A stretch of DNA of 64,000 bases from Minisyncoccota bacterium (GCA_041674185.1 JBAYWE010000001.1:893-64892); one strand, 5' to 3'; positions 21,711-51,149 are shown, numbered from the stretch's first letter. The notes: a model not told the origin generated them from the letters alone. Made by a program: numbers and translations.

Positions 21711-21712
21711 AG

Positions 21713-28201: not shown

Positions 28202-28357
28202 CTAAACCTGTTCTGGAGTTTCCTCTTGAGGAACTGCATCTAAAGCCGGAGCTTCTGTAGTAGTTACTTCTTCTTCCTTTTTTTCTTCTGTTGAAGCCAC
28301 AACGGGTTCGGTTGAACCTACAATTTCGTCAGGTACTATGTTTGTATTTTGATCCAT
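28202..28357 (-). CDS. Small acidic protein (51 aa) or small-transcript unit
   Basis: MDQNTNIVPDEIVGSTEPVVASTEEKKEEEVTTTEAPALDAVPQEETPEQV*, with its own sigma70-like promoter and terminator. Below the ORF-track length cutoff. Confidence 0.3.
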   Translation of the reverse strand: MDQNTNIVPDEIVGSTEPVVASTEEKKEEEVTTTEAPALDAVPQEETPEQV

Positions 28358-28449: not shown

Positions 28450-28479
28450 ATTATACGGGCATCATGATGTTATGTTCAA
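28450..28479 (-). promoter_or_regulatory. Sigma-70-like promoter (TTGAAC-N18-TATAAT) reading toward the small acidic ORF
   Basis: Minus strand TTGAACataacatcatgatgcccgTATAAT. Directly abuts the 34-bp palindrome at 28483. Confidence 0.35.
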
Positions 28480-28482
28480 TTC

Positions 28483-28516
28483 TCCATATTTTTTCGCGAT
28501 CGCGAAAAAATATGGA
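28483..28516. repeat. Perfect palindrome copy 1: TCCATATTTTTTCGCGATCGCGAAAAAATATGGA
   Basis: 34-bp perfect inverted repeat. The same core recurs at 49382 and 50508. Confidence 0.8.
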
Positions 28517-28597
28517 AAGTTATCTACAGAGAAATTATAGCTAAAAAAGAAGCACCCCTCTCTCCCTTCCTACCCCTCATTCCTCACAACTCACGAC

Positions 28598-29518
28598 TCA
28601 CCTCAAAGTTTCGTATATATTAAGGATCGCCTTTACCGCATCTCCCGCGGCAGTGTTGTTTTGATGGTAGAGTCCGTCCGTACAATCACCAGCAGACCAA
28701 ATACCTTCACGAGAGGTTTGCATTGTTTTATGATCAACAACAATTTGTCCTCGTTCATTCAAAGTAACTAAGTCTTTTATCAAAGCAGTATTTGGATTAT
28801 ATCCAATCGCCACAAACGCCCCAGAAATAGCCATATCCTCTTCTTGTCCAGTACTCGTATTACGAAGATGCGCTTGTTGTAAGAAAACATCTCCGCTAAA
28901 CTCAGTCACCACGGTATTCATACGAATAGACACATGAGGATACGAAGTTATTTTCTCTTGATACACCGGATCACCCCTCAACACATCAGAGCGATTTAAC
29001 AACGTCACGTGTTGCGCATACGGAATCAAATCCAATACGGCTTCGAGTCCACTATTCCCCCCTCCCACAACAATAACGTCTTTTCCCTTCATAAGAGGTG
29101 CGTCACAAATAGAACAGTAGAATACTCCCTTCCCTTCAAATTGTTTTTCTCCAGGTATATCCAATCGTTTATAAGAACTTCCCAAAGCAACAAGAATTGT
29201 CTTTGTGGAAAAAACTTTTCCGGTATGTACCCGTACGTCAAATCCCCCTCCTTCATGAGTAGTAATCTCAGAAACCGTAGACCCGAGAAAAATATCAATA
29301 TCTTGTTGTGCGCGAAGATGTTTTTCTAGTTGTTGAGCAAAATCAAAACCAGATATAGTCTCAATGCCAATAAAATTTTCTATAGATCCCGAATTAACTG
29401 ATTGTCCCCCAATATCTTGGGATATAAGAGCTGTTTTTAATCGTTTTCGCGCAGCATAAATTCCTGCTGCAACACCCGCAGGACCTCCGCCGATAATAAT
29501 AAGATCATACATAATCAA
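28598..29518 (-). CDS. trxB: Thioredoxin-disulfide reductase
   Basis: FAD motif MYDLIIIGGGPAGVAAGIYAARKRL, redox CSICDAP, NADPH GxGxxG (VVGGGNSGLEA). 306 aa. Confidence 0.85.
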   Translation of the reverse strand: MIMYDLIIIGGGPAGVAAGIYAARKRLKTALISQDIGGQSVNSGSIENFIGIETISGFDFAQQLEKHLRAQQDIDIFLGSTVSEITTHEGGGFDVRVHTGKVFSTKTILVALGSSYKRLDIPGEKQFEGKGVFYCSICDAPLMKGKDVIVVGGGNSGLEAVLDLIPYAQHVTLLNRSDVLRGDPVYQEKITSYPHVSIRMNTVVTEFSGDVFLQQAHLRNTSTGQEEDMAISGAFVAIGYNPNTALIKDLVTLNERGQIVVDHKTMQTSREGIWSAGDCTDGLYHQNNTAAGDAVKAILNIYETLR

Positions 29519-29530
29519 TTTTTGAATAAA

Positions 29531-29998
29531 TTATTTTTCTGTAGGAGTGATCGGGTGAATACGAATACCCTTAAGAAGAAAAAGGAGTACCGTAATAAGA
29601 AATCCCGCAATCACCCCAAACCATAGTAACCCGATACCAATCAAAATTCCCACTCCCGCCGTTGCCCAAATCACAGCCGCGGTCGTAAGTCCATGCACTC
29701 TATTTTCATGTTTCATGATAATTCCTGCCCCCAAGAAACCAATACCCACCACCACATTCGCAATCACACTCAAAAAACCACTATTGCGCGCAATAATATC
29801 AGAAACACCCTCAGGAGAAAGAGCAACAAGATACGGCAAAGAAAGAGCAATTAAAGAAAAAAGAGCGGCTCCTCCCGAAACCAACATAGAAGTACGGATT
29901 CCAGCCTCTTTTCCAATATATTCACGCTCAAGCCCAATCAGACATCCGACCGCAAGTGCAATAATAAAGCGCAAAACCATTTCTTCAAGTGATAGCAT
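29531..29998 (-). CDS. MgtC/SapB family membrane protein
   Basis: RFIIALAVGCLIGLEREY... is the MgtC N-terminal signature. 155 aa, 4-5 TM. Confidence 0.7.
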   Translation of the reverse strand: MLSLEEMVLRFIIALAVGCLIGLEREYIGKEAGIRTSMLVSGGAALFSLIALSLPYLVALSPEGVSDIIARNSGFLSVIANVVVGIGFLGAGIIMKHENRVHGLTTAAVIWATAGVGILIGIGLLWFGVIAGFLITVLLFLLKGIRIHPITPTEK

Positions 29999-30103
29999 GT
30001 GTAAGTTAAAATTTAAAGTTAAAAAGTATAAAGTAAGTATAGATTAAATACCATAAAACTCAATGTATAAAACAACACTTTATAACGTGAGAATTTGATG
30101 GCT

Positions 30104-30331
30104 TTATGACTGTAGTGCCTCATCTATCGCCCCCCGATCAAAACCAACGATAATTTTCCCATCAATATCTAACACGGGAACTCCCATTTGACCCGATTTA
30201 CGGATCATTTCTGCTGCCGCCGCATCATCTTCTTGTACATTTACTTCTTTGTACGAAACCTTTTTTTCGTCTAAGTATGCCTTTGCTAATTTGCAGTAAG
30301 AACAAAATGTTGTTGAGTATATAGTAATCAT
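30104..30331 (-). CDS. Glutaredoxin-like protein (NrdH/YruB-type)
   Basis: 75 aa. CxxC CSYC at the N-terminus (TFCSYCKLAKAYL), GVPVL and a thioredoxin-fold pattern. Confidence 0.65.
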   Translation of the reverse strand: MITIYSTTFCSYCKLAKAYLDEKKVSYKEVNVQEDDAAAAEMIRKSGQMGVPVLDIDGKIIVGFDRGAIDEALQS

Positions 30332-30531
30332 GAATTTAAAGTTTTTAATTTTGTAATTTTATGAATAAATTCCAACTCTCAATTTTTAAATAGGTGCATT
30401 TGAAACATTATTTAAAAATTAGAAATTATTCTATCATCCCCCATCAGCTATTTTAAGAAAACATTTCATAAATAAGTATTTAAATAGTATGCATGAAGGA
30501 TGAAATCTCAAAAACAAAAATTGGAACTTGT

Positions 30532-31260
30532 TTATTGAATGAGTGCTTCGTATTCCTTCAGATCAAACGCATTTTCCAAACGGGTTCCATTAATAAATAT
30601 CGTGGGAGTCGAGATATTATTACCAAGAAGTACCTGAGCATCTTTCAAATATTCATCAGTTATAGAGGCGTACGAATCAGAGTCATAACATGTCGTGAAT
30701 GCAGGAATATTCAACCCCCCCTGTTCTGCAAATCCAATAAAAGTATCTCGTGTCAGATTGTTATTATTTTCATTATTCTTTTTCGCAATAATCTCAGAGC
30801 TCTCCACAGAAAGAATTGCATCATGCATGTTCCAAAAACCTTTTTGTTCTCGTGCACATTGTGCAGCACGCGCAGCAGCAAATGATTCTCCTCTCTTGCT
30901 GTATCCATCAATGAAAGAAAGTGTTTTAACAATCATTTTTGCTTTTCCGGTATCAATATACTGTGCCCGTATCTGGGGCTCTATCTGAGCAAAAAATATG
31001 GCACAGGCACTACATTGAAAATCTAAAAACCCTACAATAGTAGAAGATGCATCGGGGTTTCCGAGAACTTCCTCAGAGCGTATTTCGAGGCCAGTACGAC
31101 CATCAGTCACAGGGTCCCCACTCCCGTCAATAGGTTGAGGAGAAGAATTTTTTCCAAAAATAAGAGCTATACTTATAATAGCTATACCCAAAACAACCGC
31201 ACTTCCAATAATAATCCGTTCAAACGAAGATTCCTTTTTATTTGTATTTTTTTCTTGCAT
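30532..31260 (-). CDS. DsbA-like thiol:disulfide oxidoreductase, membrane-anchored
   Basis: TM anchor then FLDFQCSACAIF CxxC in a thioredoxin-like fold. Start placed at the internal M (MQEKNTNKK). The ORF-track start at 31326 would overlap the divergent PGT gene. Confidence 0.55.
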   Translation of the reverse strand: MQEKNTNKKESSFERIIIGSAVVLGIAIISIALIFGKNSSPQPIDGSGDPVTDGRTGLEIRSEEVLGNPDASSTIVGFLDFQCSACAIFFAQIEPQIRAQYIDTGKAKMIVKTLSFIDGYSKRGESFAAARAAQCAREQKGFWNMHDAILSVESSEIIAKKNNENNNNLTRDTFIGFAEQGGLNIPAFTTCYDSDSYASITDEYLKDAQVLLGNNISTPTIFINGTRLENAFDLKEYEALIQ

Positions 31261-31305
31261 AACATACGATATATATATTACCAAATCGACTAACCAAGAG
31301 TATAA

Positions 31306-32619
31306 ATGATCGTAAAAATAAAGCAAACATTGCTGGCAATAGGAGATATTATCGCATTATATCTCAGTTTAATAGCGGCGCTGCTCATGCGGTATGGGTA
31401 TATAAATGAAGAATATAGCCATGCACACCTCGGTCCATTTTCAATTATTTTCATACTATGGATTGCTATATTCTATATCGTAGGACTGTATGATATCCGC
31501 AATTTAAAAAATACGCTCTCATTTATGAGAAAATTTGGCGTCAGCATTCTCGCGGGTGCCGTAAGTTCCATAACATTATTTTATATCATTCCGTACTTCC
31601 ATATTTCTCCCAAAAGAAATCTCGCGCTATTTTTAGGTATATTTATTATAGTAGGAGGAATGTGGCGATTATTTTTTAATCGTACCATTCGCGTACCGCA
31701 ACGACGCGTCGTACTTATGGGAGAAGGAGAAGAATTAAATGAACTCGCTGTACATATGCGCGAAAATCCACAGATTGGATACCACGTAGTGCATCATATC
31801 ACCACCCTCCAAGAAAATCAGACGGCCCAAGAATTGAAAGCTATCCACCATCCAGATACCATTATCATCAGCGAAACACTGCACGCGCCAACCCTTATGA
31901 AAGAATTATCATCGGAGGCAATGCACGGAATAGAAATTATTGATAGCACGACCGCCTATCAAATAATATTTAAAAAACTACCTCTTTCACAAATGCACGA
32001 ATTGTGGATTATTACACGACTCTCTCGTGCAAAACGAGTACATGAAACCATGAAGCAGGTGTATGAGCCTATAGCCGCTCTATTACTTTGTATAGGACTC
32101 TCACCTCTCTTACTCGCTATCTACATACTTATTATAAGCACCTCTCGAGGACCAGGGATTTATAAACAAATACGAGTGGGAAAAGGAGAAGAAAAATTTT
32201 GGATATATAAATTCCGTACCATGCGCGTAGACGCAGAAAAGAATGGAGCGGTCTTTGCACAGAAAAATGACACACGTATTACGAAAGTCGGCACCTGGTT
32301 ACGGTTTTCTCACCTCGATGAACTCCCTCAAATTTTTAATGTGATACGCGGAGACCTATCTTTCGTAGGACCTCGTCCTGAACGTCCCGAGTTTATTATT
32401 CAGCTCAAAAAAGAAATTCCTCACTATGAGTTACGACATCTCGTGCGACCCGGTATCACCGGATGGGCACAGGTAAACTATCGAGCAAATGTAAATTTAG
32501 TAGAAGACACCTATCATAAATTGCAATACGACATGTTTTATATTCAAGAACGATCCTTTATATTTGATGTTCTCACCATATTAAAAACAATTAAAATGTT
32601 TCTCTTTAATTATAGATAG
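31306..32619 (+). CDS. Polyprenyl-phosphate sugar phosphotransferase (bacterial sugar transferase, WbaP/WecA-like initiating PGT)
   Basis: 4 N-terminal TMs plus C-terminal motifs ISTSRGPGIYKQIRVGKGEEKFWIYKFRTM and LDELPQIFNVIRGDLSFVGPRPERPEF (PF02397). Confidence 0.8.
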   Translation: MIVKIKQTLLAIGDIIALYLSLIAALLMRYGYINEEYSHAHLGPFSIIFILWIAIFYIVGLYDIRNLKNTLSFMRKFGVSILAGAVSSITLFYIIPYFHISPKRNLALFLGIFIIVGGMWRLFFNRTIRVPQRRVVLMGEGEELNELAVHMRENPQIGYHVVHHITTLQENQTAQELKAIHHPDTIIISETLHAPTLMKELSSEAMHGIEIIDSTTAYQIIFKKLPLSQMHELWIITRLSRAKRVHETMKQVYEPIAALLLCIGLSPLLLAIYILIISTSRGPGIYKQIRVGKGEEKFWIYKFRTMRVDAEKNGAVFAQKNDTRITKVGTWLRFSHLDELPQIFNVIRGDLSFVGPRPERPEFIIQLKKEIPHYELRHLVRPGITGWAQVNYRANVNLVEDTYHKLQYDMFYIQERSFIFDVLTILKTIKMFLFNYR

Positions 32620-32716
32620 ATAGGTATTACCTTACTTATTTTAAAATATGCCCTTGATTAGGGCGTATTTTTATGGTATCATATAGTCAGTTCATAATAA
32701 CAATTAGGAAGGAAAA

Positions 32717-33325
32717 ATGAAAACATGGATTAGGGAACATATCCTAGAAATGAGATTATCCATAGAAAAAAAGCGGGGGGCTATAGAACAGCAAAAAATA
32801 AAAATGAAAGGCTTTTTAAGAGGAGAATATATTGCCCTTAAAAAAGATTTTGGCGCAGGAGTAATACTCATCCTCACCATAGGAGTGATCCTATTGCTCA
32901 TCCAAGTAGTTATGAAAGTACTCGCACCAATCGTACTCATAACCAACAATGAATTATTTCAAATATTATTGTCTCTTGGTATAATACTCATTCTTGGACT
33001 TCTCTCACGGAAATTAAAGGAAAACGAGAAGACCGCATGGCTCGTTGACTTCTTGCCATCAAAATCAATGGATCAACCAGAGATGATCTTCTGGCATGAA
33101 GAAAAATATTGTTCTGGAATCTTAATAGGATATAGAGAAATTAAGACTCCAGGAGGAATCACTATAAAATTTGCGGAAATATCGGAGGTAAATATAGGAC
33201 CAACAGGAATAAGCATGTTATCTCCAAAATTTATTTCCGTGCTGTCGGAGGATTTACAGCCAACAGGAAGGAAACTAAAAGACGTAGCAAAGAGACTGGC
33301 TACATTAGGAACTATACCAAATTAA
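32717..33325 (+). CDS. Hypothetical membrane protein
   Basis: 202 aa, two TM helices. Good RBS AGGAAGGAAAAATG. Confidence 0.4.
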   Translation: MKTWIREHILEMRLSIEKKRGAIEQQKIKMKGFLRGEYIALKKDFGAGVILILTIGVILLLIQVVMKVLAPIVLITNNELFQILLSLGIILILGLLSRKLKENEKTAWLVDFLPSKSMDQPEMIFWHEEKYCSGILIGYREIKTPGGITIKFAEISEVNIGPTGISMLSPKFISVLSEDLQPTGRKLKDVAKRLATLGTIPN

Positions 33326-33344
33326 TTTTTCTAAAAACAAGTTC

Positions 33345-33369
33345 GGAGCGCAAAACGCTCCATTTTTTT
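33345..33369. terminator. Bidirectional terminator
   Basis: ggagcg-caaaa-cgctcc + attttttt, between the converging genes. Confidence 0.5.
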
Positions 33370-34855
33370 ATTCTATTTCAGTTTGAGGAACATTCCCTTT
33401 TCGCAATGCCATAGCCTTATTCCATACAAATATAACACTCTCTTCGCGCAACAGAAAAAGCGCAATAGCATAAACCACCATACTTATAAAAATATTTATA
33501 TATAAATTAATTTCCAACATACGGAACAATAAAAGTATGAGAGCCATAGCTACAGTTGCCCCAATCAATTTTTCAATTTGATGTAGAATACGAAATTGTA
33601 ACTCCTTGCGTAAGAAATGAATAAGATATAGCGTGAGAATAACCTGATTAAGTACGGTTGAAATCGCTGCTCCCTCAATACCAAATAATGGAATTAAGAG
33701 AAGATTAAATAGAAAGTTTCCAAAAATACCAATAAGAACATAGGCAATAAGCTTCTTTTCCTTATTAAGAGCAAAAAAGGCGTTACCAAACATAATAGCA
33801 ATAAAAGCAGGAACAAAAGTCAAACTCAATATACCAAACGGACCAGCGGCAGAGTAATATAGAGAACCATAGAGAAGCTGAATGATTTGTCGCGAAAGAA
33901 GAAATCCCCCAACCGTAAGAGGAATCGCAAATAACATCAATAATGAGACACCTCGTTCTAATAATTTTCTTAGTAGTTCGCTATCTTTAATAGCCCGAGA
34001 CATAGAAGGAAAAAAGGCGGTGGCAAGCAACGCGGGGATCATATAAATAATTTGTATGATGCGCTGAGCAGCACCATAGTATCCAACATCATCTATGGTA
34101 CCAAACCATCCAACCATAATCGTATCCGTGTTAAGCATAATCGCCCCCATAACTCCCAGCATACCAAACGGCCAACATGAAACTAATATTTTCTTCGCGA
34201 GTTTTTTATCAAAATTATTCCACAGATTCTTAAAATAAGATCGGTATGGATAAAATGCGACTATCATACCAAGCCCTGTGCCCGCAACATACCCCCACAC
34301 TAAAGAATATGCAGTACGAGAAATATATAAAGAAAGAAATCCAACAAGAGCAATTATTGCATTCGTAAAGACCTGAACGAATGACTCAACTTCCATACGA
34401 TCCCATGCACGAGAGAGAGTTGCTCCAAAATCCCGAAGTCCATCTAATCCAAGCATGAACAACGTAAGTGGAATAAGGATCAGCACCTCATGTTGTTTAA
34501 CAAAATATGGAGCACCGAGAACCACTGCACAAATAACAATAAAAAGAAATAGAATCTTTACTAAGAGAGCAGTAGAAAAATATTTATGCTGTAAACTAAT
34601 ATCACGAGCAGACTCTCTCGTGATAATCGCGTTAATACCAAAATCTACAAATATAGTGAATAGCGCCGCTAAACTAAGCACATAAGAAAACACCCCCCAT
34701 TCAGTAGTTCCCATAACCCGGGCGGCATATATTAGAATAACCGCCTTAAGAAAACGAGATAGAATAGATCCAAAAAACAGCCAAAAAGTATTTTTCGCTA
34801 TAGTCTGTCCAGTAGTTTTATTTTCTAAGAGGAAAGACTTTACACGCTGTATCAT
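33368..34855 (-). CDS. Polysaccharide flippase (Wzx/MOP superfamily)
   Basis: 495 aa, ~12-14 TM helices, typical oligosaccharide flippase composition. Confidence 0.65.
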   Translation of the reverse strand: MIQRVKSFLLENKTTGQTIAKNTFWLFFGSILSRFLKAVILIYAARVMGTTEWGVFSYVLSLAALFTIFVDFGINAIITRESARDISLQHKYFSTALLVKILFLFIVICAVVLGAPYFVKQHEVLILIPLTLFMLGLDGLRDFGATLSRAWDRMEVESFVQVFTNAIIALVGFLSLYISRTAYSLVWGYVAGTGLGMIVAFYPYRSYFKNLWNNFDKKLAKKILVSCWPFGMLGVMGAIMLNTDTIMVGWFGTIDDVGYYGAAQRIIQIIYMIPALLATAFFPSMSRAIKDSELLRKLLERGVSLLMLFAIPLTVGGFLLSRQIIQLLYGSLYYSAAGPFGILSLTFVPAFIAIMFGNAFFALNKEKKLIAYVLIGIFGNFLFNLLLIPLFGIEGAAISTVLNQVILTLYLIHFLRKELQFRILHQIEKLIGATVAMALILLLFRMLEINLYINIFISMVVYAIALFLLREESVIFVWNKAMALRKGNVPQTEIE

Positions 34856-34867
34856 ATATAAACCACA

Positions 34868-38058: not shown

Positions 38059-38077
38059 AAAGAGTGTGTTGATTATA

Positions 38078-43528: not shown

Positions 43529-44412
43529 ATGTTCTTTTTAAAGACAATAAATCCATCGGATGTGCTATCCACCACACACAATCCTCCCTGAGAATCTATA
43601 AAAGACGGTGCATATCCTACCTGTTCTAAATATGCTCGTGCCTCTTGGTGCATAGGAAGATCAGGATTATATTCCATAACAATAATAGGATTGTGTGATG
43701 AAAGCAACCGGTGAGCTCCTTGTAATATCCTAAATTCAGCACCCTCAGCATCTATTTTTATTACATACGGAGCAATATTATATTTTTGTATAATACCGTC
43801 AAGAGTAAATGATGGTACCCATATCTCTTCCTGAATACTTCTAAACTGCTCGTTAAGGTCAACAATGCTTTGTTCTGTACTACTATTTTCAGAATAAAGA
43901 AGGGGGAGTTTAATAAAAGACTCACCTTCTTCATGAGAAGAAACAGTCCCACAAAAAAGTGAAATATTATCGTGAGATTTCTTATTAATATTTAAATATT
44001 CCCAAGCCTCTACATTTGGTTCAAATGATAAGACGCGTCCTTTTTTACCAACAAGAAAACTAGCTAATAAAGAATAGAATCCAAAATGAGCACCTACATC
44101 AAAAAACACAGCTCCCTCGGTAAGGGTGTTTAATAAAAATCTTGCAAGACGAATCTCAGACGGATGCGCCTTCGCCCCATATAGATAATATTCTAAGCCA
44201 ATGGGAGCAGGAATACACATGCGCCACCCAAAAAACAAAGGACCCGATATCAACGTTACCTTTTTAGAAAACCTATATCTAACCTTACTATATATACCCA
44301 CAACAAATCTGATGGGATGTTTTAAAAATACAGAAAATAACCGCCCTATTCTATTTTTAACAGTTGTGTGCTCCACCGCATCAAGAATCAAAGAAAAATT
44401 ATCTGCATACAT
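43525..44412 (-). CDS. FkbM-family methyltransferase
   Basis: VFFDVGAHFGFYSLLASF...RVLSFEPNVEAWEYL. Confidence 0.7.
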   Translation of the reverse strand: MYADNFSLILDAVEHTTVKNRIGRLFSVFLKHPIRFVVGIYSKVRYRFSKKVTLISGPLFFGWRMCIPAPIGLEYYLYGAKAHPSEIRLARFLLNTLTEGAVFFDVGAHFGFYSLLASFLVGKKGRVLSFEPNVEAWEYLNINKKSHDNISLFCGTVSSHEEGESFIKLPLLYSENSSTEQSIVDLNEQFRSIQEEIWVPSFTLDGIIQKYNIAPYVIKIDAEGAEFRILQGAHRLLSSHNPIIVMEYNPDLPMHQEARAYLEQVGYAPSFIDSQGGLCVVDSTSDGFIVFKKNI

Positions 44413-44420
44413 AAAGAAAT

Positions 44421-46652
44421 CTATTGAAAATTAATGGGCTGCCATATTTTATCGTCTATGTTCTTGATAATCATATCAAGTGCATCTTTCTTCTCAGGAA
44501 CCATTATTTGTAGTGCTTCGGCGCATATCTTTGCTCGTTTGTCGTGTATTTTATAATAGTGCTGTAACAATATATAGTATCCAGACACCATCCCTTGTTC
44601 TTGTTGATAAATACCAGGACTAAGTTTTCGAACAAATTCTAACGAATCAAATCCATCATCATAATAGATTTCTCCTGCGGATATCTGAACTAAGGCAAGA
44701 TATAGATGAGATTGAGCCACTTTATCATCAAGCACAACCACATCCTTTAAGACAGTAATGGCTTCGTTATATCTCTTCTGAAATCCAAGATTATACGCGC
44801 GCATATAATATAAATCTTGACGCTGAGGAGATAATTCTTGCGCTTTTTGATACGCCTCTTGTGCCAAAGGAAGATATTCAGTTAATCCCCCTTTCCCCAA
44901 CGCATCATATCCACCCCCTAAATTAGCCCAGTAGCGAGGATTGTAGGGTTCACGCACAAGTAAATCTTTTATTTGATCAATAGCAAAGAGTACTAATTGT
45001 TTTTCACTTTCTTTTCCTTTATACAAATCCTTTACATTATCCAACATATTAGTACGAATAACATCCTGCGCATATGTATAAGGATGGAGTGCTGAATCCA
45101 TATTTTCTTTAAATTCATCTAAAGAGACTGATGCTTGTGAATTACGAATAAGAGAAAGGTACGAACTCATTTGAGAAAACGGAATAACAGTCCAAAAGAT
45201 AAGAGTATAGAAGAAGAAGATTGCGACGACACTAAAAACAGTGGTTAGAGCGTAGTAATTAGTATTAAGTGAAGAAGTCTTCTTTCCTGAATTTTTGCTC
45301 GTTCTCAAGCCCCTATCTCTAATATCTCCTTCTTCCCCTCGTTCCTTGTTTCTCGTCACTTCAGCTACTACATAACCGAGGAATCCAAACCATAAAATAT
45401 AGGTAATAATTGAGTCAAATACCGTAAGGTTTTGTATAAAATAAGCGGTTCCAAAAAACAAAATCATCGCTTTTACAAAAGAGAAGGCACGACCTCGAAT
45501 ACAATACCACAATAGAAGTCCCCATATACTCAGATAAATGAGTAATCCGATGACTCCATTCATAACCAATACATCAAAAATCTTGTTGTGAGCTCTATCA
45601 AACCACTTATTTTCAAATTCAAAATATCGAGGATTATAGTTTGCATTGTAGGCAATATTAAAATTCTCAGGACCCCAACCCAATAAGAACTTCTGTACTC
45701 CATACTCAGAAGGATTTACCGCATCCAAACTCACCCCCGCGGAGATCAAACGAGTCTGAGTGCTGTTGTCTTGAAGAGTAAACTGGGCAAGACGATCAAA
45801 TCCAGGAATTTTCTGCCAAAATTGAGCATTTTTTGTTGAAAAGAAAAATACTCCACAAAAAACTAGAATAAGCAGTATATATCCTGCAATACGTGAAAGT
45901 GAACGAGAACTAATATGTACGTTCTTTCCTGAATACCACACATATAAAAATACAAGAATAATACCAACCCCCACACCTACAATAACACCACGCGTTTCAG
46001 TAATAAAAATACCAAAAAACGAAGTTATGCCGACAACAATAGATGCAATAATCCAAAACAAGCGTACACCTGTTTTATTTTCTTTTTGTCGATAGTATTC
46101 CCAAAAAACAATTCCCGCCGAAAATAAAGCAAATAAAAATACCTCCGCAAGATAAATGGGATTTCCGGTAAATGAGGTGGGGCGTATCACACCACGGGAA
46201 AAATCAACAAGCGCATCAAAAAATAAAACAAAACTCACACCTAAAGAAATCTGAAAAAAACGAACCCAATCTTTATATTCAAATAAAAGATATGAAAACA
46301 CAAAAAATCCAAAAAAGAAAAGAAGCCCCAAAAGTCCCTCCCCTCGTTCAATGTCTCCAAAAAAAGCACGATATGAATCAAAAGCAAAAAGAGTACTCAC
46401 CACATTAAGAGCAATAAAAGAAAAAATCGCAATACCCAAAGGATTCTTTAATAACGTATGCACCTTACGACCAATATCTTCACGAAACTCTCTGTTATAC
46501 CATAGATAGCCCCCAACTAACAAGACAACAATAGTAACAATCCAACGAATTAATAAATTCTTCCCACTAATATAGGGGAAAAAATATGACTTCGCAATGA
46601 CCAAGGGGATAAACGCCAATACATACAGAAAATACTTTATAATATTTTTCAT
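44421..46652 (-). CDS. Wzy_C (O-antigen ligase/polymerase-like) membrane protein with C-terminal TPR repeats; candidate O-oligosaccharyltransferase
   Basis: ~12 TM helices with an O-antigen-ligase-like core (RAHNKIFDVLVMNGVIGLLIYLSIWGLLLWY), then a ~250-aa soluble TPR-like tail (AYQKAQELSPQRQDLYYMRAYNLGFQKRYNEAI). Confidence 0.6.
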   Translation of the reverse strand: MKNIIKYFLYVLAFIPLVIAKSYFFPYISGKNLLIRWIVTIVVLLVGGYLWYNREFREDIGRKVHTLLKNPLGIAIFSFIALNVVSTLFAFDSYRAFFGDIERGEGLLGLLFFFGFFVFSYLLFEYKDWVRFFQISLGVSFVLFFDALVDFSRGVIRPTSFTGNPIYLAEVFLFALFSAGIVFWEYYRQKENKTGVRLFWIIASIVVGITSFFGIFITETRGVIVGVGVGIILVFLYVWYSGKNVHISSRSLSRIAGYILLILVFCGVFFFSTKNAQFWQKIPGFDRLAQFTLQDNSTQTRLISAGVSLDAVNPSEYGVQKFLLGWGPENFNIAYNANYNPRYFEFENKWFDRAHNKIFDVLVMNGVIGLLIYLSIWGLLLWYCIRGRAFSFVKAMILFFGTAYFIQNLTVFDSIITYILWFGFLGYVVAEVTRNKERGEEGDIRDRGLRTSKNSGKKTSSLNTNYYALTTVFSVVAIFFFYTLIFWTVIPFSQMSSYLSLIRNSQASVSLDEFKENMDSALHPYTYAQDVIRTNMLDNVKDLYKGKESEKQLVLFAIDQIKDLLVREPYNPRYWANLGGGYDALGKGGLTEYLPLAQEAYQKAQELSPQRQDLYYMRAYNLGFQKRYNEAITVLKDVVVLDDKVAQSHLYLALVQISAGEIYYDDGFDSLEFVRKLSPGIYQQEQGMVSGYYILLQHYYKIHDKRAKICAEALQIMVPEKKDALDMIIKNIDDKIWQPINFQ

Positions 46653-46844
46653 TCAAGAAAATTAATAGCGGTCTTCTATAACCGATATTATAAAAATTAA
46701 TAATATGAAGCAGTATAACCTAATTTAAGTATAATGGAAAGATAGTAAATAAGATTTTTGCCAACAAAAAACAGCCCCGAAGGGCTGTTTTTTGTTTTTA
46801 CCTCTTATGTGAAATCAAAAGATAACACACGAATAGTTAAACTA

Positions 46845-48701
46845 TTAAGGTAAGGTTACACCAGCTCCTGTGGTCTTATACACACTTGAATCAAGTGATG
46901 TAGTGACAGGAGAAGCTAAAGCAGAATCTGTGCTCCAAATGATATTTTTAACAAACATCATGTAAGAACCAGAAGTTACTGTTGAAGGAATTTCTCCCTT
47001 TACAGTAATGCTTGCAGTAGTATCCTTTGAAACTTTGTAAACTCCACCAGTGTACGCATTGTATCCGGTTACAACCAAGCTGTTATTAGCAGTTGATGAA
47101 CCAGTTGCACCTGCGCTGACTGAAGTTGCATAGGTAAGATTCGTTGAGGTTGAATCGCTCAAGTAGATATCTCCACCTGCTGCGGTTACGCTCAATACGA
47201 AGGTTGCCATACCTTTATAGGTAGGAGTTGCATTTGCTCCTGCAGTGTTCTGAGTAGTGATACCAGAAGCTGAGGTCAATGATACAACCAAACCTTTGCT
47301 CAATACAGTCATGGTGTCAGACAAAGCTGAACCACTCAAGTATCCTCCAGTGACTGAATCGCCACGTGAGTTTTCTGCTACGAATCCTGCTGCAGAATCC
47401 AAGCTTGCGGTTGAAGTTGCTGCAGTGGTGGTAGCACCAGTGTAGTCAGCTTTAATCGTAATGGTCTTGGTTGAATCTGCTGGTACATAGAGGGTCATGC
47501 TGGTAAAGGTTGCACGATTGCTTGAAACAGTCGCTGAACCCAACAAGGTTGATCCATCATATGCATATACAGTTGATTCTGAAGCATTTCCTCCCAAGGT
47601 TACTACAAAGTCAGTAACTTTGATTTGATCCTTTTCAGAGCGCAAATCAACAGCCAATAAGGTTGCTTCTTTTACATCTCCGTTAGTATCAGACACAATG
47701 TTTGCTGCCTTTGGTGAATTTCCGTTCTTGGAAACAGTCAAAGTAGCATTGGTAACTTGGCTCTTTTCAGGATTGAATGTGCGGCTGATAGCTGAAGCTG
47801 GGCCGTATTGATCAATTCCCAAACCATCCTTTCCACGTACTCCGTTTGCAGGAACAGTAACGGTGCGATTTGCTGCGTTTGCATCTGCAGTATCAATGGT
47901 GCTGTACAAATCACCAGCTACAGTAAGAACTTTGTATTCACCTGCTTTTACAAGGAATGAAAGTCCACTAACAGTAACATAGTAATTGGTTCCATCTTTA
48001 ACCACAGTGTTTGAATTCAAAGCAGATGATGACAAGACGGTTGAACCATCCATGACATACAAGGTGCTCAAAATTTTGTTGTAAAGCGCAGTTGAGCTAC
48101 CAAGATCAATCTTGACGCGCTCTACGTTTACATCACCATTGGTTGCCTTAAGTTTCAAACCAATTAAGGCAAACTTGGTTGCTCCTTCATAAGCCTTCTG
48201 TCCATCGGCTGGAGTTGGGTTCAACTCAACAGTCAAAGTTCCTTCGGTTTTGGTCATTCCGGTAGGAGTGGTTGGAGTAGTAGGGGTAGTAGGAGTGGTT
48301 GGGGTAGTAGGGGTCGTAACAACACTCATTGAATTGAAGTGTGCGCGAGTTACTGCTCCAAAGTATCCAACAGCAGGAGAGATTCCTACTGATTTTTGAT
48401 AAGCGGCCAACGCAGCTTTAGTCATAGGACCAAAGAATCCGGTTGGTGCTACTGACAAGAATCCTTTTGAATTAAGGAATCCTTGCAAAGCGGTTACTTC
48501 TGCTCCCTTTGAACCAACAGTGAGGTTGCTGGTGTAAGTTGCTGAAGTTGCTGGGGTTGTACCTGCTTGTGCCTGTAATGCTTGAATCTGAGCCAAGAGG
48601 GCTTGGATTTGAGCGTTGATGTCAGTCTGCGCGGACGCTGACGGAGCAACAATTGCTACAGCCAACAAAGCAAATACGAAAATTTTTGAAAATTTATTCA
48701 T
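46845..48701 (-). CDS. Secreted Thr/Ser-rich surface (S-layer-like) protein with PG_binding_1 domain and (TTP)n linker
   Basis: Signal peptide. Coiled AQIQALLAQIQALQAQ. Peptidoglycan-binding motif GSKGAEVTALQGFLNSKGF...FGPMTKAALAAYQKSVGI. (TTP)x5 linker. ~450 aa beta-rich, T/S/G/A-dominated domain. Confidence 0.6.
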   Translation of the reverse strand: MNKFSKIFVFALLAVAIVAPSASAQTDINAQIQALLAQIQALQAQAGTTPATSATYTSNLTVGSKGAEVTALQGFLNSKGFLSVAPTGFFGPMTKAALAAYQKSVGISPAVGYFGAVTRAHFNSMSVVTTPTTPTTPTTPTTPTTPTGMTKTEGTLTVELNPTPADGQKAYEGATKFALIGLKLKATNGDVNVERVKIDLGSSTALYNKILSTLYVMDGSTVLSSSALNSNTVVKDGTNYYVTVSGLSFLVKAGEYKVLTVAGDLYSTIDTADANAANRTVTVPANGVRGKDGLGIDQYGPASAISRTFNPEKSQVTNATLTVSKNGNSPKAANIVSDTNGDVKEATLLAVDLRSEKDQIKVTDFVVTLGGNASESTVYAYDGSTLLGSATVSSNRATFTSMTLYVPADSTKTITIKADYTGATTTAATSTASLDSAAGFVAENSRGDSVTGGYLSGSALSDTMTVLSKGLVVSLTSASGITTQNTAGANATPTYKGMATFVLSVTAAGGDIYLSDSTSTNLTYATSVSAGATGSSTANNSLVVTGYNAYTGGVYKVSKDTTASITVKGEIPSTVTSGSYMMFVKNIIWSTDSALASPVTTSLDSSVYKTTGAGVTLP

Positions 48702-49381
48702 ATCGAATTTTTGTTTGTTCTGAATTAAGTGATTTTTGTAATTGTTAGAAAATTCTTGCAGCGGTGACTACCCTTATTACCGACCCACTACTCCATCGGT
48801 GAGGACGAATAAGTAAGTTAATAATAGTGATCACGCTTGTGTGCGAGAATCTTGACTTCCCATAAGGAAGCCACGCGCTTGTATAATAGACAAGTATTAT
48901 ACCAGCGCGCGAATCCCCTATTTAGTTTTAGTCCGGATGAGATAAAGAAAAACCTCATAGAGATGAGGCGTTAAAAACAACAGTATACAATACTGAATCA
49001 TACAATATATATACAGAGCTCGTATTCCGCCTCACACGGAAAAACTTTTATTGATTTATATAGTACAAAGATAGTATAGCAAGTATTGGCATAAATGTCC
49101 AATAAACCTTTTATACTTATCTCTACCCCGTCACATATCTGTCTTCGTCAGGGCTTATTATAAGAAACGAGCAACCCTCCAAAACGTTACAAGAATACAT
49201 CTCAAGGGAGTTCTGGGGGATATTATTCTGCTTATACATACCCACATATACCCTCATTTTACACTTTCACGCACACAATGAAGCGCACCATACACACATA
49301 AAATATACACATAATATCTATATCCGCACACATCCATATATATATAACAGATACCCCTCGCACACACACCCTGTACACAAC

Positions 49382-49417
49382 TTTCCATATTTTTTCGCGA
49401 TCGCGAAAAAATATGGA
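49382..49417. repeat. Perfect palindrome copy 2: TTCCATATTTTTTCGCGATCGCGAAAAAATATGGAA
   Basis: 36-bp perfect inverted repeat, ~90 nt downstream of the stop of the HTH gene. Confidence 0.8.
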
Positions 49418-49508
49418 AGTCTTACCCAAAGAGGAAAAACCAACCAAAAACGCCCCTATAATGGCGTTTTATCTATATATTCTATATATAATCGTATATA
49501 AAAGCTTA

Positions 49509-50384
49509 TTATTGCTCTTTTTTTCGTAGTCTTAAAAACGAATTCGGCCCCCCATTCCCCACACGCTCAACAATCTTACTATCCACCAAGGTTTTAATAT
49601 CATATCGCACCGTGCGATCACTCACCTTCGGAAGACGTTCTAAAATGTCATTAATATTACAAAAATTCTTACTCTTCAATATAGAAACGATCCGCTCCTT
49701 ACGCTCTGCAGAAGAAAGGACAACGCGATCATTTTGAGCTGTTTCTCTCGATATTTCATTGCCAGTATTTCCGGAAATAGAACCCCTATTTTTTTCCGAC
49801 TTATTTCCGGAAAACACATTGCCAGACTCAGTAATATCGTTTGCCGGACTTTTTCCGGAAAATGATAGGGCATTGTAAGAATCAGTAAAAGAGCCATTTT
49901 GGGTGGCTTTTCCGGAAAGGACTTTGCCAGACTCGGAAATATCGTTTGCCGGATTAACGTCTATATGAGAACTCTCACCATGGGGATATATCTCGCTTGT
50001 GTTGGCATCAGAATGTATCATCTGGGCGAAGTCGGAAAAAAGCACAGGGGGTTCGGAAAACATATGTTCTATTGATTCCTGTTCAAGGATTCCAGAGTTT
50101 TCTTCAAGAGTTTGTTTGGCTTCTATAAGAAGTACCTGTAAGGCACCTATTTCTCTCAAGAGCACCGCAGAATTTATTGCGGTAATATCTCCCAATTTTG
50201 AACCAAGCTGAACTACCTCCTCAAGAGCATCTAACGTCTCACTATTTTTGTGAGAAAAATACTGTAAAGCACGGTCTTCGAGAAGTTGTTTGAGACCTAC
50301 ATGCGGAACAACCTGAGCCACACGAAACACAGCCCATACCACCTCAAAAGAACGCTTTTTTATAAATTCACTTGGGTAGTTCAT
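49509..50384 (-). CDS. Winged-helix (DeoR/HTH_11-like) DNA-binding protein with internally repeated low-complexity middle region
   Basis: C-terminal ERKERIVSILKSKNFCNINDILERLPKVSDRTVRYDIKTLVDSKIVERVGNGG is an HTH_11/DeoR-type wHTH. The middle has two ~35-aa repeats (ANDISESGKVLSGK / ANDITESGNVFSGNK) encoded by a ~105-bp imperfect tandem DNA duplication carrying 4 TTCCGGAA palindromes. Confidence 0.55.
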   Translation of the reverse strand: MNYPSEFIKKRSFEVVWAVFRVAQVVPHVGLKQLLEDRALQYFSHKNSETLDALEEVVQLGSKLGDITAINSAVLLREIGALQVLLIEAKQTLEENSGILEQESIEHMFSEPPVLFSDFAQMIHSDANTSEIYPHGESSHIDVNPANDISESGKVLSGKATQNGSFTDSYNALSFSGKSPANDITESGNVFSGNKSEKNRGSISGNTGNEISRETAQNDRVVLSSAERKERIVSILKSKNFCNINDILERLPKVSDRTVRYDIKTLVDSKIVERVGNGGPNSFLRLRKKEQ

Positions 50385-50400
50385 AACGTGTAATTGACTT

Positions 50401-50430
50401 AAAAATATACCACCCCACCCAAGGAGTCAA
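50401..50430 (-). promoter_or_regulatory. Candidate sigma-70 promoter for the HTH gene (TTGACT-N17-TATTTT)
   Basis: Minus strand TTGACTccttgggtggggtggtaTATTTT, ~20 nt upstream of ATG 50384. Confidence 0.25.
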
Positions 50431-50507
50431 GTGAAGATATCATTCCTACTGTTTTCGTGTTTTTATCATTTTTACTAAAATCACTGTTATAAAAAACCTC
50501 CCAACCT

Positions 50508-50545
50508 TTTCCATATTTTTTCGCGATCGCGAAAAAATATGGAAA
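50508..50545. repeat. Perfect palindrome copy 3: TTTCCATATTTTTTCGCGATCGCGAAAAAATATGGAAA (38 bp)
   Basis: Same core as copies 1 and 2, ~125 nt upstream of the HTH gene start. The flank GGAAAGTTAT[C/A][T/C]ACAGA is shared with copy 1. Confidence 0.8.
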
Positions 50546-50903: not shown

Positions 50904-51149
50904 ATGGACGAACCTATTATACAAACAATCCCCCAAGACCCCACACCCACTCGTCATCAAACACCGTGGTGGAAATTTGCGATTGGATTTTTAGTTATTA
51001 TCGCACTCGGCATTATTGTAGATGCTATTTGGGTACAGTACTTTAGCCCCGCCGCCCAAGACACAAAACAAATGGAGGAACAATACGCGGCGTACGAACA
51101 ACAACAAAAAGAATATGAAGAGGCAATGCAACAAGACACTCCACAATAA
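50904..51149 (+). CDS. Hypothetical small membrane protein
   Basis: 81 aa, one TM (WWKFAIGFLVIIALGIIV), Gln/Glu-rich tail. Followed by a terminator. Confidence 0.3.
   Translation: MDEPIIQTIPQDPTPTRHQTPWWKFAIGFLVIIALGIIVDAIWVQYFSPAAQDTKQMEEQYAAYEQQQKEYEEAMQQDTPQ

What the first reader, a model, noticed from the sequence alone, without database searches (positions are those of the whole stretch)
28483..50545. A 34-38-bp perfect palindrome (TCCATATTTTTTCGCGATCGCGAAAAAATATGGA core) occurs three times in intergenic DNA
Exact copies lie at 28483-28516, 49382-49417 and 50508-50545, extended to TTCC...GGAA in copies 2 and 3 and to TTTCC...GGAAA in copy 3. A perfect 34-mer recurring three times in 64 kb of AT-rich sequence cannot be chance. 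All copies are in the three unusually long intergenic regions of the window. Copy 1 abuts the -35 of a TTGAAC-N18-TATAAT promoter driving a tiny acidic ORF. Copies 2 and 3 bracket the winged-HTH gene 49509..50384. Copy 2 is also the nearest upstream landmark of the S-layer-like gene. Copies 1 and 3 share an extra 17-nt flank (GGAAAGTTAT[C/A][T/C]ACAGA). A long dyad centred on CGATCG fits an operator for a dimeric regulator, a dispersed REP/MITE-like structural repeat, or an intrinsic-terminator-like RNA hairpin.
Basis: seen in the sequence. Interest (0 to 1): 0.65.

Follow-up and report, generated by a model that had tools for sequence, protein, structure and literature searches.

The report
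Orphan operator-like palindromes of CPR mini-PaaX
The three identical 34-bp palindromes are real and belong to a family of long CGATCG-centred palindromes found across Patescibacteria (CPR), which elsewhere flank the gene of a small winged-helix/Cas2-like (PaaX-type) regulator, so they are most likely binding sites for that regulator rather than for the neighbouring HTH protein.

Summary
The exact 34-mer occurs three times (28483, 49384, 50510), against none expected. The window is a Paceibacterota (CPR) chromosome segment.

The 22-bp core T6CGCGATCGCGA6 recurs in unrelated CPR genomes. Orthologous loci carry their own perfect 40-48-bp palindromes with the same CGATCG centre but different arms.

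Of 18 arm pairs, 17 show double-sided changes (94.9% paired, against 61% in shuffles). Positions ±1-10 are shared across CPR. Positions ±12-18 are fixed within a genome but differ between lineages.

In 11 independent loci, three of them found by DNA motif alone, the palindromes flank a 175-200-aa winged-helix plus PaaX-middle/Cas2-like gene ('mini-PaaX'). The best fold match is E. coli PaaX, whose operator is TGATTC-N27-GAATCA.

The window holds no such gene. Its adjacent DeoR-type HTH has an invariant recognition helix that does not track the arms.

Best reading (about 0.45): these are orphan operators of a mini-PaaX encoded elsewhere in the genome. The terminator reading is rejected, because canonical terminators sit beside the palindromes and no U-tract follows. 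A REPtron-like dispersed element remains a live rival: copies occur at convergent junctions and one lies inside prmC. Binding has not been tested.

The parts
28483..28516 (.). Palindrome copy 1 (34 bp perfect; one-mismatch extension 28481-28518)
   Evidence: Exact match; palindrome scan. It lies between the trxB stop (28598) and the ORF51 promoter.
28517..28529 (+). Asymmetric flank of copy 1 (AAGTTATCTACAG)
   Evidence: Shared with copy 3, and with copy 2 in inverted orientation (I1/I3).
28450..28479 (-). Promoter-like TTGAAC-N18-TATAAT abutting copy 1; the palindrome centre is about 44 nt upstream of the -10 box (~-56)
   Evidence: Consensus scan, 10/12 matches. The same spacing (45 nt) is seen at the L015 pilin promoter. 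A consensus match only.
28202..28357 (-). ORF51, a tiny acidic ORF downstream of that promoter, followed by the bidirectional terminator-like palindrome 28131-28168
   Evidence: ORF list; palindrome scan. No homolog in the loci held. Its status as a gene is not established.
49383..49418 (.). Palindrome copy 2 (36 bp perfect, TTCC..GGAA)
   Evidence: It lies 30 nt downstream of the HTH gene's own terminator and about 680 nt upstream of the S-layer-like gene start.
49371..49383 (-). Asymmetric flank of copy 2, inverted relative to copies 1 and 3 (CTGTACACAACTT on +)
   Evidence: I1 (47 nt, 96%) and I2 (48 nt, 94%).
49447..49470 (-). Canonical intrinsic terminator of the HTH gene (AAAACGCC..GGCGTTTT + T-rich tail)
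   Evidence: It shows that copy 2 is not needed as the terminator.
49509..50384 (-). DeoR-type HTH gene (291 aa), bracketed by copies 2 and 3; a conserved neighbour or target rather than the likely reader
   Evidence: Pfam HTH_DeoR at aa 228-278. 43 homologs, and 100% identical to a Candidatus Paceibacterota MAG protein. Recognition helix invariant across orthologs.
50402..50430 (-). HTH promoter-like TTGACT-N17-TATTTT, conserved in the 68%-identical ortholog locus L027; copy 3 is centred about 130 nt upstream of it
   Evidence: L027 sequence, compared by eye.
50508..50545 (.). Palindrome copy 3 (38 bp perfect, TTTCC..GGAAA) in the divergent region between the HTH gene and ORF81; positionally orthologous to the palindromes of L021, L023, L025, L028 and L030
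50544..50556 (+). Asymmetric flank of copy 3 (AAGTTATACACAG)
   Evidence: D2, I2.
50904..51149 (+). ORF81, a truncated homolog of the 189-aa first gene of the [189 aa - LTD/SNase giant protein - mini-PaaX] operon of relatives
   Evidence: tblastn 57% identity over 73 aa, E = 4e-25. The window lineage has lost the rest of that operon, including its mini-PaaX gene.
46845..48701 (-). S-layer-like/PG_binding_1 surface protein gene downstream of copy 2; HTH -> long spacer -> this gene -> Wzy_C is conserved synteny
   Evidence: Pfam. 67% identical to the L021 633-aa protein. Synteny.

Best explanation
The three copies belong to a family of long, almost perfect DNA palindromes centred on CGATCG and spread across Patescibacteria (CPR).

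The family is bipartite. A common core (about ±1-10 from the dyad; here T6CGCGA|TCGCGA6) is shared across CPR lineages. Distal half-sites (about ±12-18; here TCCATA...TATGGA, i.e. TCCATA-N22-TATGGA) are constant within a genome but differ between lineages.

Elsewhere in CPR the palindromes flank, usually on both sides, the gene of a 175-200-aa protein. That protein has an N-terminal winged helix and a C-terminal PaaX-middle/Cas2-like domain ('mini-PaaX'). It is a short relative of E. coli PaaX, an autorepressor whose operator, TGATTC-N27-GAATCA, has similarly wide-spaced half-sites.

I infer that a mini-PaaX dimer binds these sites. The variable winged helices would read the distal half-sites, and the conserved Cas2-like dimer core would sit over the conserved centre. 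The three window copies would then be operators of a mini-PaaX encoded outside the window.

They would control three units: the ORF51 unit (copy 1, centre about -56); the divergent HTH/ORF81 region (copy 3); and the surface-protein gene downstream of copy 2. Copies 2 and 3 lie 1.1 kb apart, which would allow a repression loop around the HTH gene.

The exact symmetry outside the protein-read positions is probably kept by hairpin-templated 'quasi-palindrome correction' during replication, or by a need for extrusion.

Shown: the sequence facts, the gene association, the covariation and the fold similarity. Inferred: binding, regulation, looping and the symmetry mechanism.
For: (1) The core is specific to CPR. 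All 5 GTDB hits to the 22-mer are CPR MAGs. There are 15 metagenome hits and none in viral contigs.

(2) Of 11 independent mini-PaaX genes examined, 10 carry a palindrome of this family on both sides and one on the upstream side only. They are L021, L025, L028, L030, L004, L016, L008+L019, L031, L033 (centre CGGCCG), L034 and L032. L004, L016 and L019 were found by the DNA motif alone.

(3) Palindrome presence tracks the gene. Loci with a full gene have 3 copies; L023, with a truncated gene, has 1; L029, with no gene, has 0.

(4) Position profile: ±1-10 are identical within and between genomes. ±12-18 are identical within 6-10 of 11 genomes but show 3-4 different bases between genomes. L021 and L028 mini-PaaX share the recognition-helix sequence and also share the distal CCCAAATT, although their inner parts differ.

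(5) The mini-PaaX model (pLDDT 80) best matches E. coli PaaX 8a39 and Rv0674, then Cas2 proteins. The PaaX operator is TGATTC-N27-GAATCA, and PaaX represses its own promoter (PMC9493321).

(6) At mini-PaaX genes a -10-like box lies 0-25 nt after the upstream palindrome (L033 TGcTATAAT, L031 TGgTACAAT, L008 TATAAT, L025 TAGAAT). The site therefore overlaps the -35 region (read from sequence).

(7) Copy 3 is positionally conserved in orthologous loci, while its arms change in concert with the other copies of each genome.

(8) The exact 34-mer is also kept in at least 9 copies in another population (Ga0172380), although the flanks have diverged.
Against: No mini-PaaX gene lies in the 64-kb window (hmmsearch). 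The rest of the genome could not be searched, so the cognate protein is assumed.

The copies are all-or-none. There are three perfect copies and no degenerate ones, which is unlike ordinary regulons.

Symmetry is kept by compensatory changes even between copies within one genome (L004, L016, L030, L034). Protein reading alone does not explain that.

Some solo copies sit where no promoter is expected: prfB><murG in L006, tmRNA><PHP in L005, the convergent junction in L001, and inside prmC in L003.

In the window, copies 2 and 3 are 130-700 nt from the nearest plausible promoters.

In L028 the upstream copy ends 9 nt before the start codon, which fits an RNA-level role better.

No binding data exist.
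Confidence: 0.45

Rival explanations
1. A REPtron-like system. The palindromes would be a dispersed, copy-and-paste repeat family. The flanked single-copy gene (winged helix + Cas2-like domain with an invariant Asp, as in the Cas2 active-site position) would be the domesticated enzyme that recognises, cuts or spreads them, as RAYT does for REPs.
For: The gene is flanked by copies of a genome-specific palindrome, and further copies are dispersed in intergenic DNA.

Copies within a genome are near-identical over 34-44 bp and carry a conserved asymmetric flank.

Copies occur at convergent junctions and in a ~16-aa segment of prmC that is absent from solved HemK structures.

D130, E133, R139, R143 and Q155-S157 of the Cas2-like domain are invariant or nearly so.

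Assemblies break at the copies.
Against: Copy number is low. There are 3 per 64 kb here. In the 20-kb loci of L021, L025, L028 and L030 the only copies are the three operon-linked ones.

The copy upstream of the HTH gene is positionally conserved over deep divergence, which points to function rather than transient insertion.

The protein has no HUH/Y1 motif and folds like a transcription factor.

No presence/absence polymorphism was observed.
Confidence: 0.2
2. An RNA-level hairpin. The palindrome would be transcribed and form a ~17-19-bp stem with a GAUC loop. It would act as a 5' or 3' stabiliser, an RNase III processing site or a protein-dependent attenuator, possibly bound by the Cas2-like domain.
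For: The predicted hairpin is stable, at -21 to -25 kcal/mol on either strand.

Covariation is strong.

Copies lie 9-70 nt before the start codons and 0-45 nt after the stop codons of mini-PaaX genes.

Five imperfect copies have G.U-compatible mismatches on the sense strand of the neighbouring gene.

A TATAAT lies 17 nt upstream of copy 1 on the - strand and about 24 nt upstream of the L013/L014/L020 copies.
Against: The arms are almost strictly Watson-Crick: only 4 G.U against 8 other non-pairs in the inner 14 pairs x 35 sequences. Two wobble cases are on the wrong strand.

No U-tract follows, and canonical terminators sit next to several copies.

An RNA structure would not need identical sequence among copies, nor genome-specific ±12-18 positions.

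No Rfam family matches.
Confidence: 0.12
3. An operator of the adjacent DeoR-type HTH protein (49509-50384), which would autoregulate through copies 2 and 3.
For: Copies 2 and 3 bracket the gene. In 7 of 8 ortholog loci a CGATCG-centred palindrome lies 90-330 nt upstream of the gene. The window has no other candidate DNA-binding gene next to the copies.
Against: The recognition helix and wing (VSDRTxRYD..ERxGxGGPNSF) are nearly invariant in 8 orthologs, whereas the arms differ entirely. L029 has the gene but no palindrome.

Palindromes with the same core occur in loci with no such gene: L004, L016, L019 and L031-L034.

In relatives the upstream palindrome is explained by the divergent mini-PaaX operon.
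Confidence: 0.08
4. A methylation-sensitive switch. The central GATC/CGATCG would be a methyltransferase target, so that protein binding and methylation compete. This would give phase-variable expression of pilins and surface proteins, as in Pap or Agn43. It is a variant of the operator model.
For: The invariant centre is CGATCG in 34 of 35 distinct copies. Copies lie upstream of six pilin-like genes and an S-layer-like gene.
Against: No methyltransferase for this site was found in the window. L033 has CGGCCG instead. CGATCG is not otherwise enriched or avoided: 9 sites against 10.6 expected. This reading is purely inferential.
Confidence: 0.05

Closest known systems
E. coli PaaX repressor and its operator TGATTC-N27-GAATCA
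   Same: The regulator has a winged helix plus a Cas2-like middle domain, and PaaX is the best fold match. The inverted half-sites are separated by about 2-3 helical turns, giving a 34-40-bp site. PaaX represses its own promoter.
   Different: The CPR protein is half the size and lacks the PaaX C-terminal ligand domain. The spacer is itself a conserved palindrome (A/T tracts + CGATCG). The whole site is perfectly symmetric. Copies flank the regulator gene on both sides. There is no phenylacetate pathway.
REP sequences with RAYT genes (REPtrons)
   Same: A single-copy gene is flanked by inverted copies of a genome-specific palindrome that also occurs dispersed in intergenic DNA. Gene and repeat evolve together.
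   Different: The protein is not an HUH/Y1 transposase. Copy number is low. The palindromes are perfect and longer. There is no GTAG-type 5' tetranucleotide.
Multi-operator looping repressors (DeoR, LacI, GalR)
   Same: Several identical operators lie hundreds of bp apart and bracket a gene or promoter.
   Different: Those operators are 16-21 bp and degenerate. Looping is only inferred here.
HIP1 (GCGATCGC) of cyanobacteria
   Same: The octamer GCGATCGC, with GATC/CGATCG methylation targets, lies at the centre.
   Different: HIP1 is hyper-abundant genome-wide, including in coding DNA. Here it occurs 4 times in 64 kb, 3 of them inside the palindromes.
Rickettsia palindromic elements / in-frame palindromic insertions
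   Same: One copy (L003) lies in frame inside prmC, in a segment missing from homologs.
   Different: This is a single case. The element is only 30-48 bp, and no family of genic insertions was seen.

Membership tests
PaaX-family operator | Inverted half-sites separated by a long (~27 bp) spacer, ~39 bp in all | tested here: met
   TCCATA-N22-TATGGA. The genome-specific positions are ±12-18. Literature value from PMC9493321.
PaaX-family operator | A cognate PaaX-family regulator is encoded with or near the sites | tested here: inconclusive
   Met in 11 related loci. Not met inside the window. The rest of the genome was not available.
PaaX-family operator | The site overlaps the promoter, so that the repressor competes with RNA polymerase | tested here: inconclusive
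   At mini-PaaX genes a -10-like box follows within 0-25 nt. In the window copy 1 abuts a -35, but copies 2 and 3 are far from predicted promoters. These are consensus matches only.
PaaX-family operator | The protein binds the site specifically | not testable with these tools
   Needs EMSA, DAP-seq or footprinting.
REP/RAYT (REPtron) | The flanked gene encodes an HUH/Y1 (IS200-like) transposase | tested here: not met
   The flanked gene is a winged helix + PaaX_M/Cas2-like protein.
REP/RAYT (REPtron) | Tens to hundreds of extragenic copies per genome | tested here: inconclusive
   3 copies in 64 kb; at least 9 on 8 contigs of Ga0172380; only operon-linked copies in four 20-kb loci. No complete genome was available.
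Intrinsic (Rho-independent) terminator | A G+C-rich stem followed directly by a U-tract at the end of a transcription unit | tested here: not met
   No T-run follows any copy, and the scan does not call them. A separate canonical terminator lies at 49470-49447.
MITE | Terminal inverted repeats around an internal segment, with target-site duplications | tested here: not met
   The arms meet at the dyad with no internal segment. The flanks of the three copies show no direct duplication.
HIP1 | The octamer is strongly over-represented throughout the genome | tested here: not met
   4 GCGATCGC in 64 kb, 3 of them inside the palindromes. The organism is CPR, not a cyanobacterium.
CRISPR repeat / Cas2 adaptation module | Repeat-spacer array with cas1 next to cas2 | tested here: not met
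   The copies are isolated, not arrayed. The loci examined have no cas1 neighbour. Cas2 similarity is partial and near the cut-off.
DeoR-type operator of the adjacent HTH | Site specificity co-varies with the regulator's recognition helix, and the site is present wherever the regulator is | tested here: not met
   The helix is invariant while the arms differ. L029 has the gene without a site.

The most novel reading that the evidence does not exclude
The palindromes and the flanked winged-helix/Cas2-like gene could form a new kind of REPtron-like system in CPR bacteria. A domesticated Cas2-fold protein would recognise a conserved CGATCG hairpin or cruciform tip and maintain, symmetrise or spread its own palindromes. 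The sites would then be co-opted as regulatory or insulating elements next to pilin and surface-protein genes.
Probability: 0.2. Interest if true: 0.85.

Novelty: new variant of a known kind. Interest (0 to 1): 0.6.

Why it matters
Almost nothing is known about transcriptional control in Patescibacteria.

This finding links a phylum-wide, easily searchable DNA motif to a large protein family: 5066 clusters at 50% identity with E <= 1e-10. Members of that family are often mis-named 'Cas2' or left unnamed.

If the pairing is a regulator and its operator, it defines a testable regulon. That regulon would touch pilins, an S-layer-like protein and an extracellular nuclease operon, which are the genes thought to mediate the epibiotic lifestyle.

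The strict symmetry kept by compensatory change, and the split between a conserved core and lineage-specific distal half-sites, give a natural system for studying co-evolution of protein and DNA specificity. If the rival is right, it would be a non-HUH route to palindrome dispersal.

There are also two practical points. The motif breaks short-read assemblies, and it explains false 'Cas2' annotations in CPR MAGs.

Tried and rejected
Chance or assembly artefact: rejected (0 expected; independent assemblies).

Known RNA family: none at gathering thresholds. Only sub-threshold generic hairpin hits to miRNA precursor models appeared.

Phage origin: the 20-mer core is absent from 2.9 million viral contigs.

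HIP1-type over-representation: rejected.

CGATCG avoidance or enrichment as a restriction-site signature: none.

Heat-shock operators (CIRCE, CtsR box, HAIR) were considered, because ClpB-like and ClpP genes are neighbours. The sequences do not match from memory, and the association with clp genes is not conserved in relatives.

A site-specific recombination or invertible-segment reading (13-bp arms + 8-bp spacer, like loxP): no recombinase gene in the window, and most related copies are single.

The search for the window genome's own mini-PaaX failed. Accession look-ups gave no genome link. The last contig look-up returned a different 5-kb contig. P0152/P0154, the nearest candidates, carry a different palindrome class (GACGATCGTC).

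Literature searches for the motif, PaaX+Cas2 and PaaX+CPR found nothing relevant.

The single-sequence homolog search for mini-PaaX found only 2 proteins. An alignment query was needed.

Full report
OBSERVATION. The 34-mer TCCATATTTTTTCGCGATCGCGAAAAAATATGGA occurs exactly three times, at 28483-28516, 49384-49417 and 50510-50543. None is expected in shuffles, and no degenerate relatives appear at up to 3 mismatches. Perfect symmetry extends to 49383-49418 in copy 2 and to 50508-50545 in copy 3.

Copies 1 and 3 share the right-hand flank AAGTTAT[C/A][T/C]ACAG. Copy 2 has the same flank inverted on its left side (CTGTACACAACTT, 49371-49383). The repeat is therefore an oriented ~47-nt unit: copy 1 +, copy 2 -, copy 3 + (I1/I2). 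Either strand can fold into a 17-19-bp hairpin with a GAUC loop, at -21 to -25 kcal/mol.

CONTEXT IN THE WINDOW. The window is bacterial, with 37% G+C and a tmRNA gene. Its HTH protein is 100% identical to a 'Candidatus Paceibacterota' MAG protein on a 69-kb contig. Almost all nearby genes are on the - strand.

Copy 1 lies between the trxB stop and a TTGAAC-N18-TATAAT promoter-like site (28479-28450). That site precedes a 51-aa acidic ORF, which is followed by a terminator-like palindrome (28131-28168), a membrane ORF and a ClpB-like gene.

Copy 2 lies 30 nt after the canonical terminator of the DeoR-type HTH gene (49470-49447). It is about 680 nt before an S-layer-like PG_binding_1 gene.

Copy 3 lies in the divergent region between the HTH gene and a small + strand ORF (ORF81, 50904-51149). 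A bidirectional terminator shared with clpP follows. The window has no transposase, recombinase or DNA methyltransferase gene.

THE MOTIF ELSEWHERE. The 22-mer core T6CGCGATCGCGA6 gave 5 hits in one-genome-per-species GTDB. All are CPR MAGs: Saccharibacteria, Moraniibacteriota and Parcubacteria. It gave 15 hits in JGI metagenome contigs and none in viral contigs.

In every hit but one, the sequence outside the core is again palindromic, with different arms (2-13 further pairs; the exception is a one-base variant). Nine copies on eight contigs of one sample (Ga0172380) have exactly the window's TCCATA/TATGGA arms. Six of these lie 90-160 nt upstream of type IV pilin-like genes.

ORTHOLOGOUS LOCI. 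The HTH protein has 43 full-length homologs. Their loci keep the synteny NusA-ClpP ... HTH - long spacer - S-layer-like gene - Wzy_C.

Most relatives also have a divergent operon next to the HTH gene. It comprises a 189-aa gene, a giant LTD/SNase protein, and a 196-200-aa gene with Pfam PaaX_M and a weak Cas2 match. ORF81 of the window is a truncated homolog of the 189-aa gene, so the window lineage has lost the rest of that operon.

Each of these loci has its own perfect palindromes of 32-48 bp centred on CGATCG, with arms unlike the window's. Examples:
- L021: AATTGCCCAAATTTTTTACGATCGTGAAAAATTTGGGCAATT
- L025: TTTGTCCAGGTTATTTCACGATCGTGAAATAACCTGGACAAA
- L028: TCCAAATTCAGAGCGATCGCTCTGAATTTGGA
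- L030: CAACTCAACATTTTCATACGATCGTATGAAAATGTTGAGTTG
- L023: a 48-mer rich in G+C

In each locus one copy sits in the HTH/189-aa divergent region, the position of window copy 3. Two more flank the PaaX_M gene. L023 has only a truncated, winged-helix-only remnant of that gene and one palindrome. L029 has neither the gene nor a palindrome.

THE ASSOCIATED PROTEIN. tblastn with the PaaX_M protein hit ORFs directly next to the palindromes in L004/L007, L016 and L019. Those loci had been retrieved only through the DNA 22-mer. Each of these genes has a second palindrome on its other side, with the same core but different outer arms.

Three further family members were chosen from a profile search (155 hits):
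- L034 has a copy on each side.
- L033 has a copy on each side, with centre CGGCCG, and both copies abut TGnTATAAT boxes.
- L032 has one upstream copy.

A paralog next to type IV secretion genes (L031) has three imperfect copies of a GACGATCGTC class. In total 11 independent genes were examined, and all have the element.

The family is large: 5066 clusters at 50% identity with E <= 1e-10. It is sometimes labelled 'CRISPR-associated endonuclease Cas2' or 'PaaX'. It scores near the cut-off for cas2 and weakly for PaaX. Its AlphaFold model (pLDDT 80) best matches E. coli PaaX (8a39) and Rv0674, and then Cas2 proteins. I call it mini-PaaX. No mini-PaaX gene lies in the window.

COVARIATION AND ANATOMY. 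I aligned 35 distinct 52-mers without gaps. The 18 arm pairs are 94.9% Watson-Crick or G.U, against 61.3% in shuffles and 37-53% when the partner is slid. Of the 18 pairs, 17 show double-sided changes. The covariation score is 0.83, against 0.18 in shuffles. My site filter required 12 of the inner 16 pairs, so the percentage is somewhat inflated; the slid controls and positions 17-20 are not affected.

Compensatory differences also occur between copies of one genome: L030 T-A to C-G, L034 ACAT/ATGT against ATCT/AGAT, and L004 and L016 with wholly different outer arms.

A position profile over 11 genomes gives three zones:
- ±1-10: identical within nearly all genomes and nearly the same between genomes.
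- ±12-18: identical within 6-10 of 11 genomes, but 3-4 different bases between genomes.
- ±20 and beyond: not conserved.

L021 and L028 mini-PaaX share the presumed recognition helix (IKNYYSCI[R/K]RLE). They also share the distal CCCAAATT, while their inner spacers differ. G.U pairs are rare: 4, against 8 other non-pairs, in the inner 14 pairs.

INTERPRETATION. E. coli PaaX binds TGATTC-N27-GAATCA and represses its own promoter (PMC9493321). The CPR sites have the same geometry (TCCATA-N22-TATGGA in the window) and belong to a PaaX-fold protein. At mini-PaaX genes a -10-like box follows the upstream copy within 0-25 nt, so the site overlaps the -35 region (read from sequence).

I therefore take the palindromes to be operators of mini-PaaX dimers. 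The variable winged helices would read ±12-18. The conserved Cas2-like core (invariant D130, R143, S157; near-invariant E133, R139, Q155) would lie over the conserved centre. This last point is inference.

The window copies would be operators of a mini-PaaX encoded elsewhere. Copy 1 is centred about 44 nt before the -10 box. The spacing at the L015 pilin promoter is the same (45 nt), and the L011-type promoters have it 40 nt further away. Copies 2 and 3 could loop out the HTH gene.

The adjacent DeoR-type HTH is an unlikely reader. Its recognition helix and wing are nearly invariant across 8 orthologs whose palindromes differ, and L029 lacks the site.

WHAT THIS DOES NOT EXPLAIN. Protein reading does not account for perfect symmetry at positions that vary within a genome. 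It does not account for the all-or-none copies. It does not account for solo copies at convergent junctions (L006 prfB><murG, L005 tmRNA><PHP, L001), or for a copy inside a ~16-aa prmC segment absent from solved HemK proteins.

Some copy-and-paste or symmetrising process must exist. Hairpin-templated template switching (quasi-palindrome correction, established in E. coli; from my own knowledge) could keep and extend the symmetry without selection. Alternatively the system is REPtron-like, with the Cas2-fold protein acting on the DNA.

An RNA-hairpin role is weakened by four things: the scarcity of G.U pairs; the genome-specific ±12-18 positions; the lack of U-tracts; and canonical terminators next to copies in the window, L001, L015 and L028. 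The L028 copy 9 nt before the start codon, and five sense-strand wobble cases, keep that role possible.

VERDICT. The operator idea is the best supported, but the likely binder is a mini-PaaX encoded outside the window, not the neighbouring HTH. The terminator idea is rejected. A REP-like mechanism remains open.

I found no description of this motif or of the mini-PaaX pairing in the searchable literature. That library is incomplete. I rate it a new variant of a known kind (a PaaX-type regulator and its operator), with interest 0.6.

Noticed in passing
window 15047-18784 (-): The isoleucyl-tRNA synthetase-like protein of 1245 aa carries a histidine-phosphatase (His_Phos_1) domain at aa 568-730, between two tRNA-synt_1 stretches. 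This is an unusual insertion or fusion.
   Followed up: no
window 50904-51149 (+): ORF81 is a truncated homolog (57% identity over 73 aa) of the 189-aa first gene of the [189 aa - LTD/SNase giant protein - mini-PaaX] operon of relatives. The window lineage has lost the rest of the operon.
   Followed up: yes
window 49804-49848 and 49909-49953: A 45-nt direct repeat (89%) lies inside the HTH gene. It encodes a repeated SG..ANDI(T/S)ESG linker. This linker is hypervariable between orthologs, while the N-terminal domain and the C-terminal wHTH are nearly invariant.
   Followed up: partly
window 48702-49382: The spacer between the HTH gene and the S-layer-like gene is long (650-880 nt) in all orthologous loci. 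In the window it holds a CA-rich tract (49200-49380), a TGGACA-N17-TATACT promoter-like site (49101-49073) and a hairpin + T-run (48969-48952). This could be a long leader or an ncRNA.
   Followed up: no
window 28131-28168, 59694-59731, 21667-21713, 51217-51250: The other perfect or near-perfect 34-47-bp palindromes of the window are ordinary A-tract/stem/T-tract bidirectional terminators. They lie after ORF51, between RNase J and the pilin gene, after tmRNA, and between ORF81 and clpP.
   Followed up: partly
L027 (whole contig, 1113 nt); contig lengths: Many contigs carrying the HTH gene or mini-PaaX genes are only 0.6-1.5 kb. L027 ends inside a palindrome at both ends. Short-read assemblies break at these repeats, so the genes are often stranded on tiny contigs.
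   Followed up: partly
L003 5524-5553 (inside ORF 5367-6284, -): The 22-mer core with TGAC/GTCA arms lies in frame inside prmC (peptide FFRDREK). It sits in a segment about 16 aa longer than in T. maritima and E. coli HemK, and the alignment to the solved structures stops just before it.
   Followed up: partly
L017 1069-1110: One copy of the 22-mer core, with G+C-rich arms (GGCCCTTCGG), comes from a high-GC contig next to an NAD-kinase-like ORF. It does not look like CPR. This could be horizontal spread or convergence.
   Followed up: no
L031 9438-10001: A mini-PaaX paralog sits next to a type IV secretion-like cluster (VirB4/TraC/TraG-like) and several tRNA genes. It has its own imperfect palindrome class (CTACTATTTTAGACGATCGTCAATTTTGGTAG), and the upstream end of L027 resembles that class. 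One genome may therefore hold two palindrome classes.
   Followed up: partly
window 25124-28062 (-): The ClpB-like AAA+ protein (859 aa) has an unannotated ~300-aa N-terminal part with predicted membrane segments. A 120-aa hydrophobic ORF precedes it and overlaps it by 4 nt.
   Followed up: no
window 11578-12606 (-) and 8644-10215 (-): A protein combines Sigma70 region 4 with a HARE-HTH domain, and there is a VirD4/TraG-like coupling protein. Both lie among housekeeping genes.
   Followed up: no
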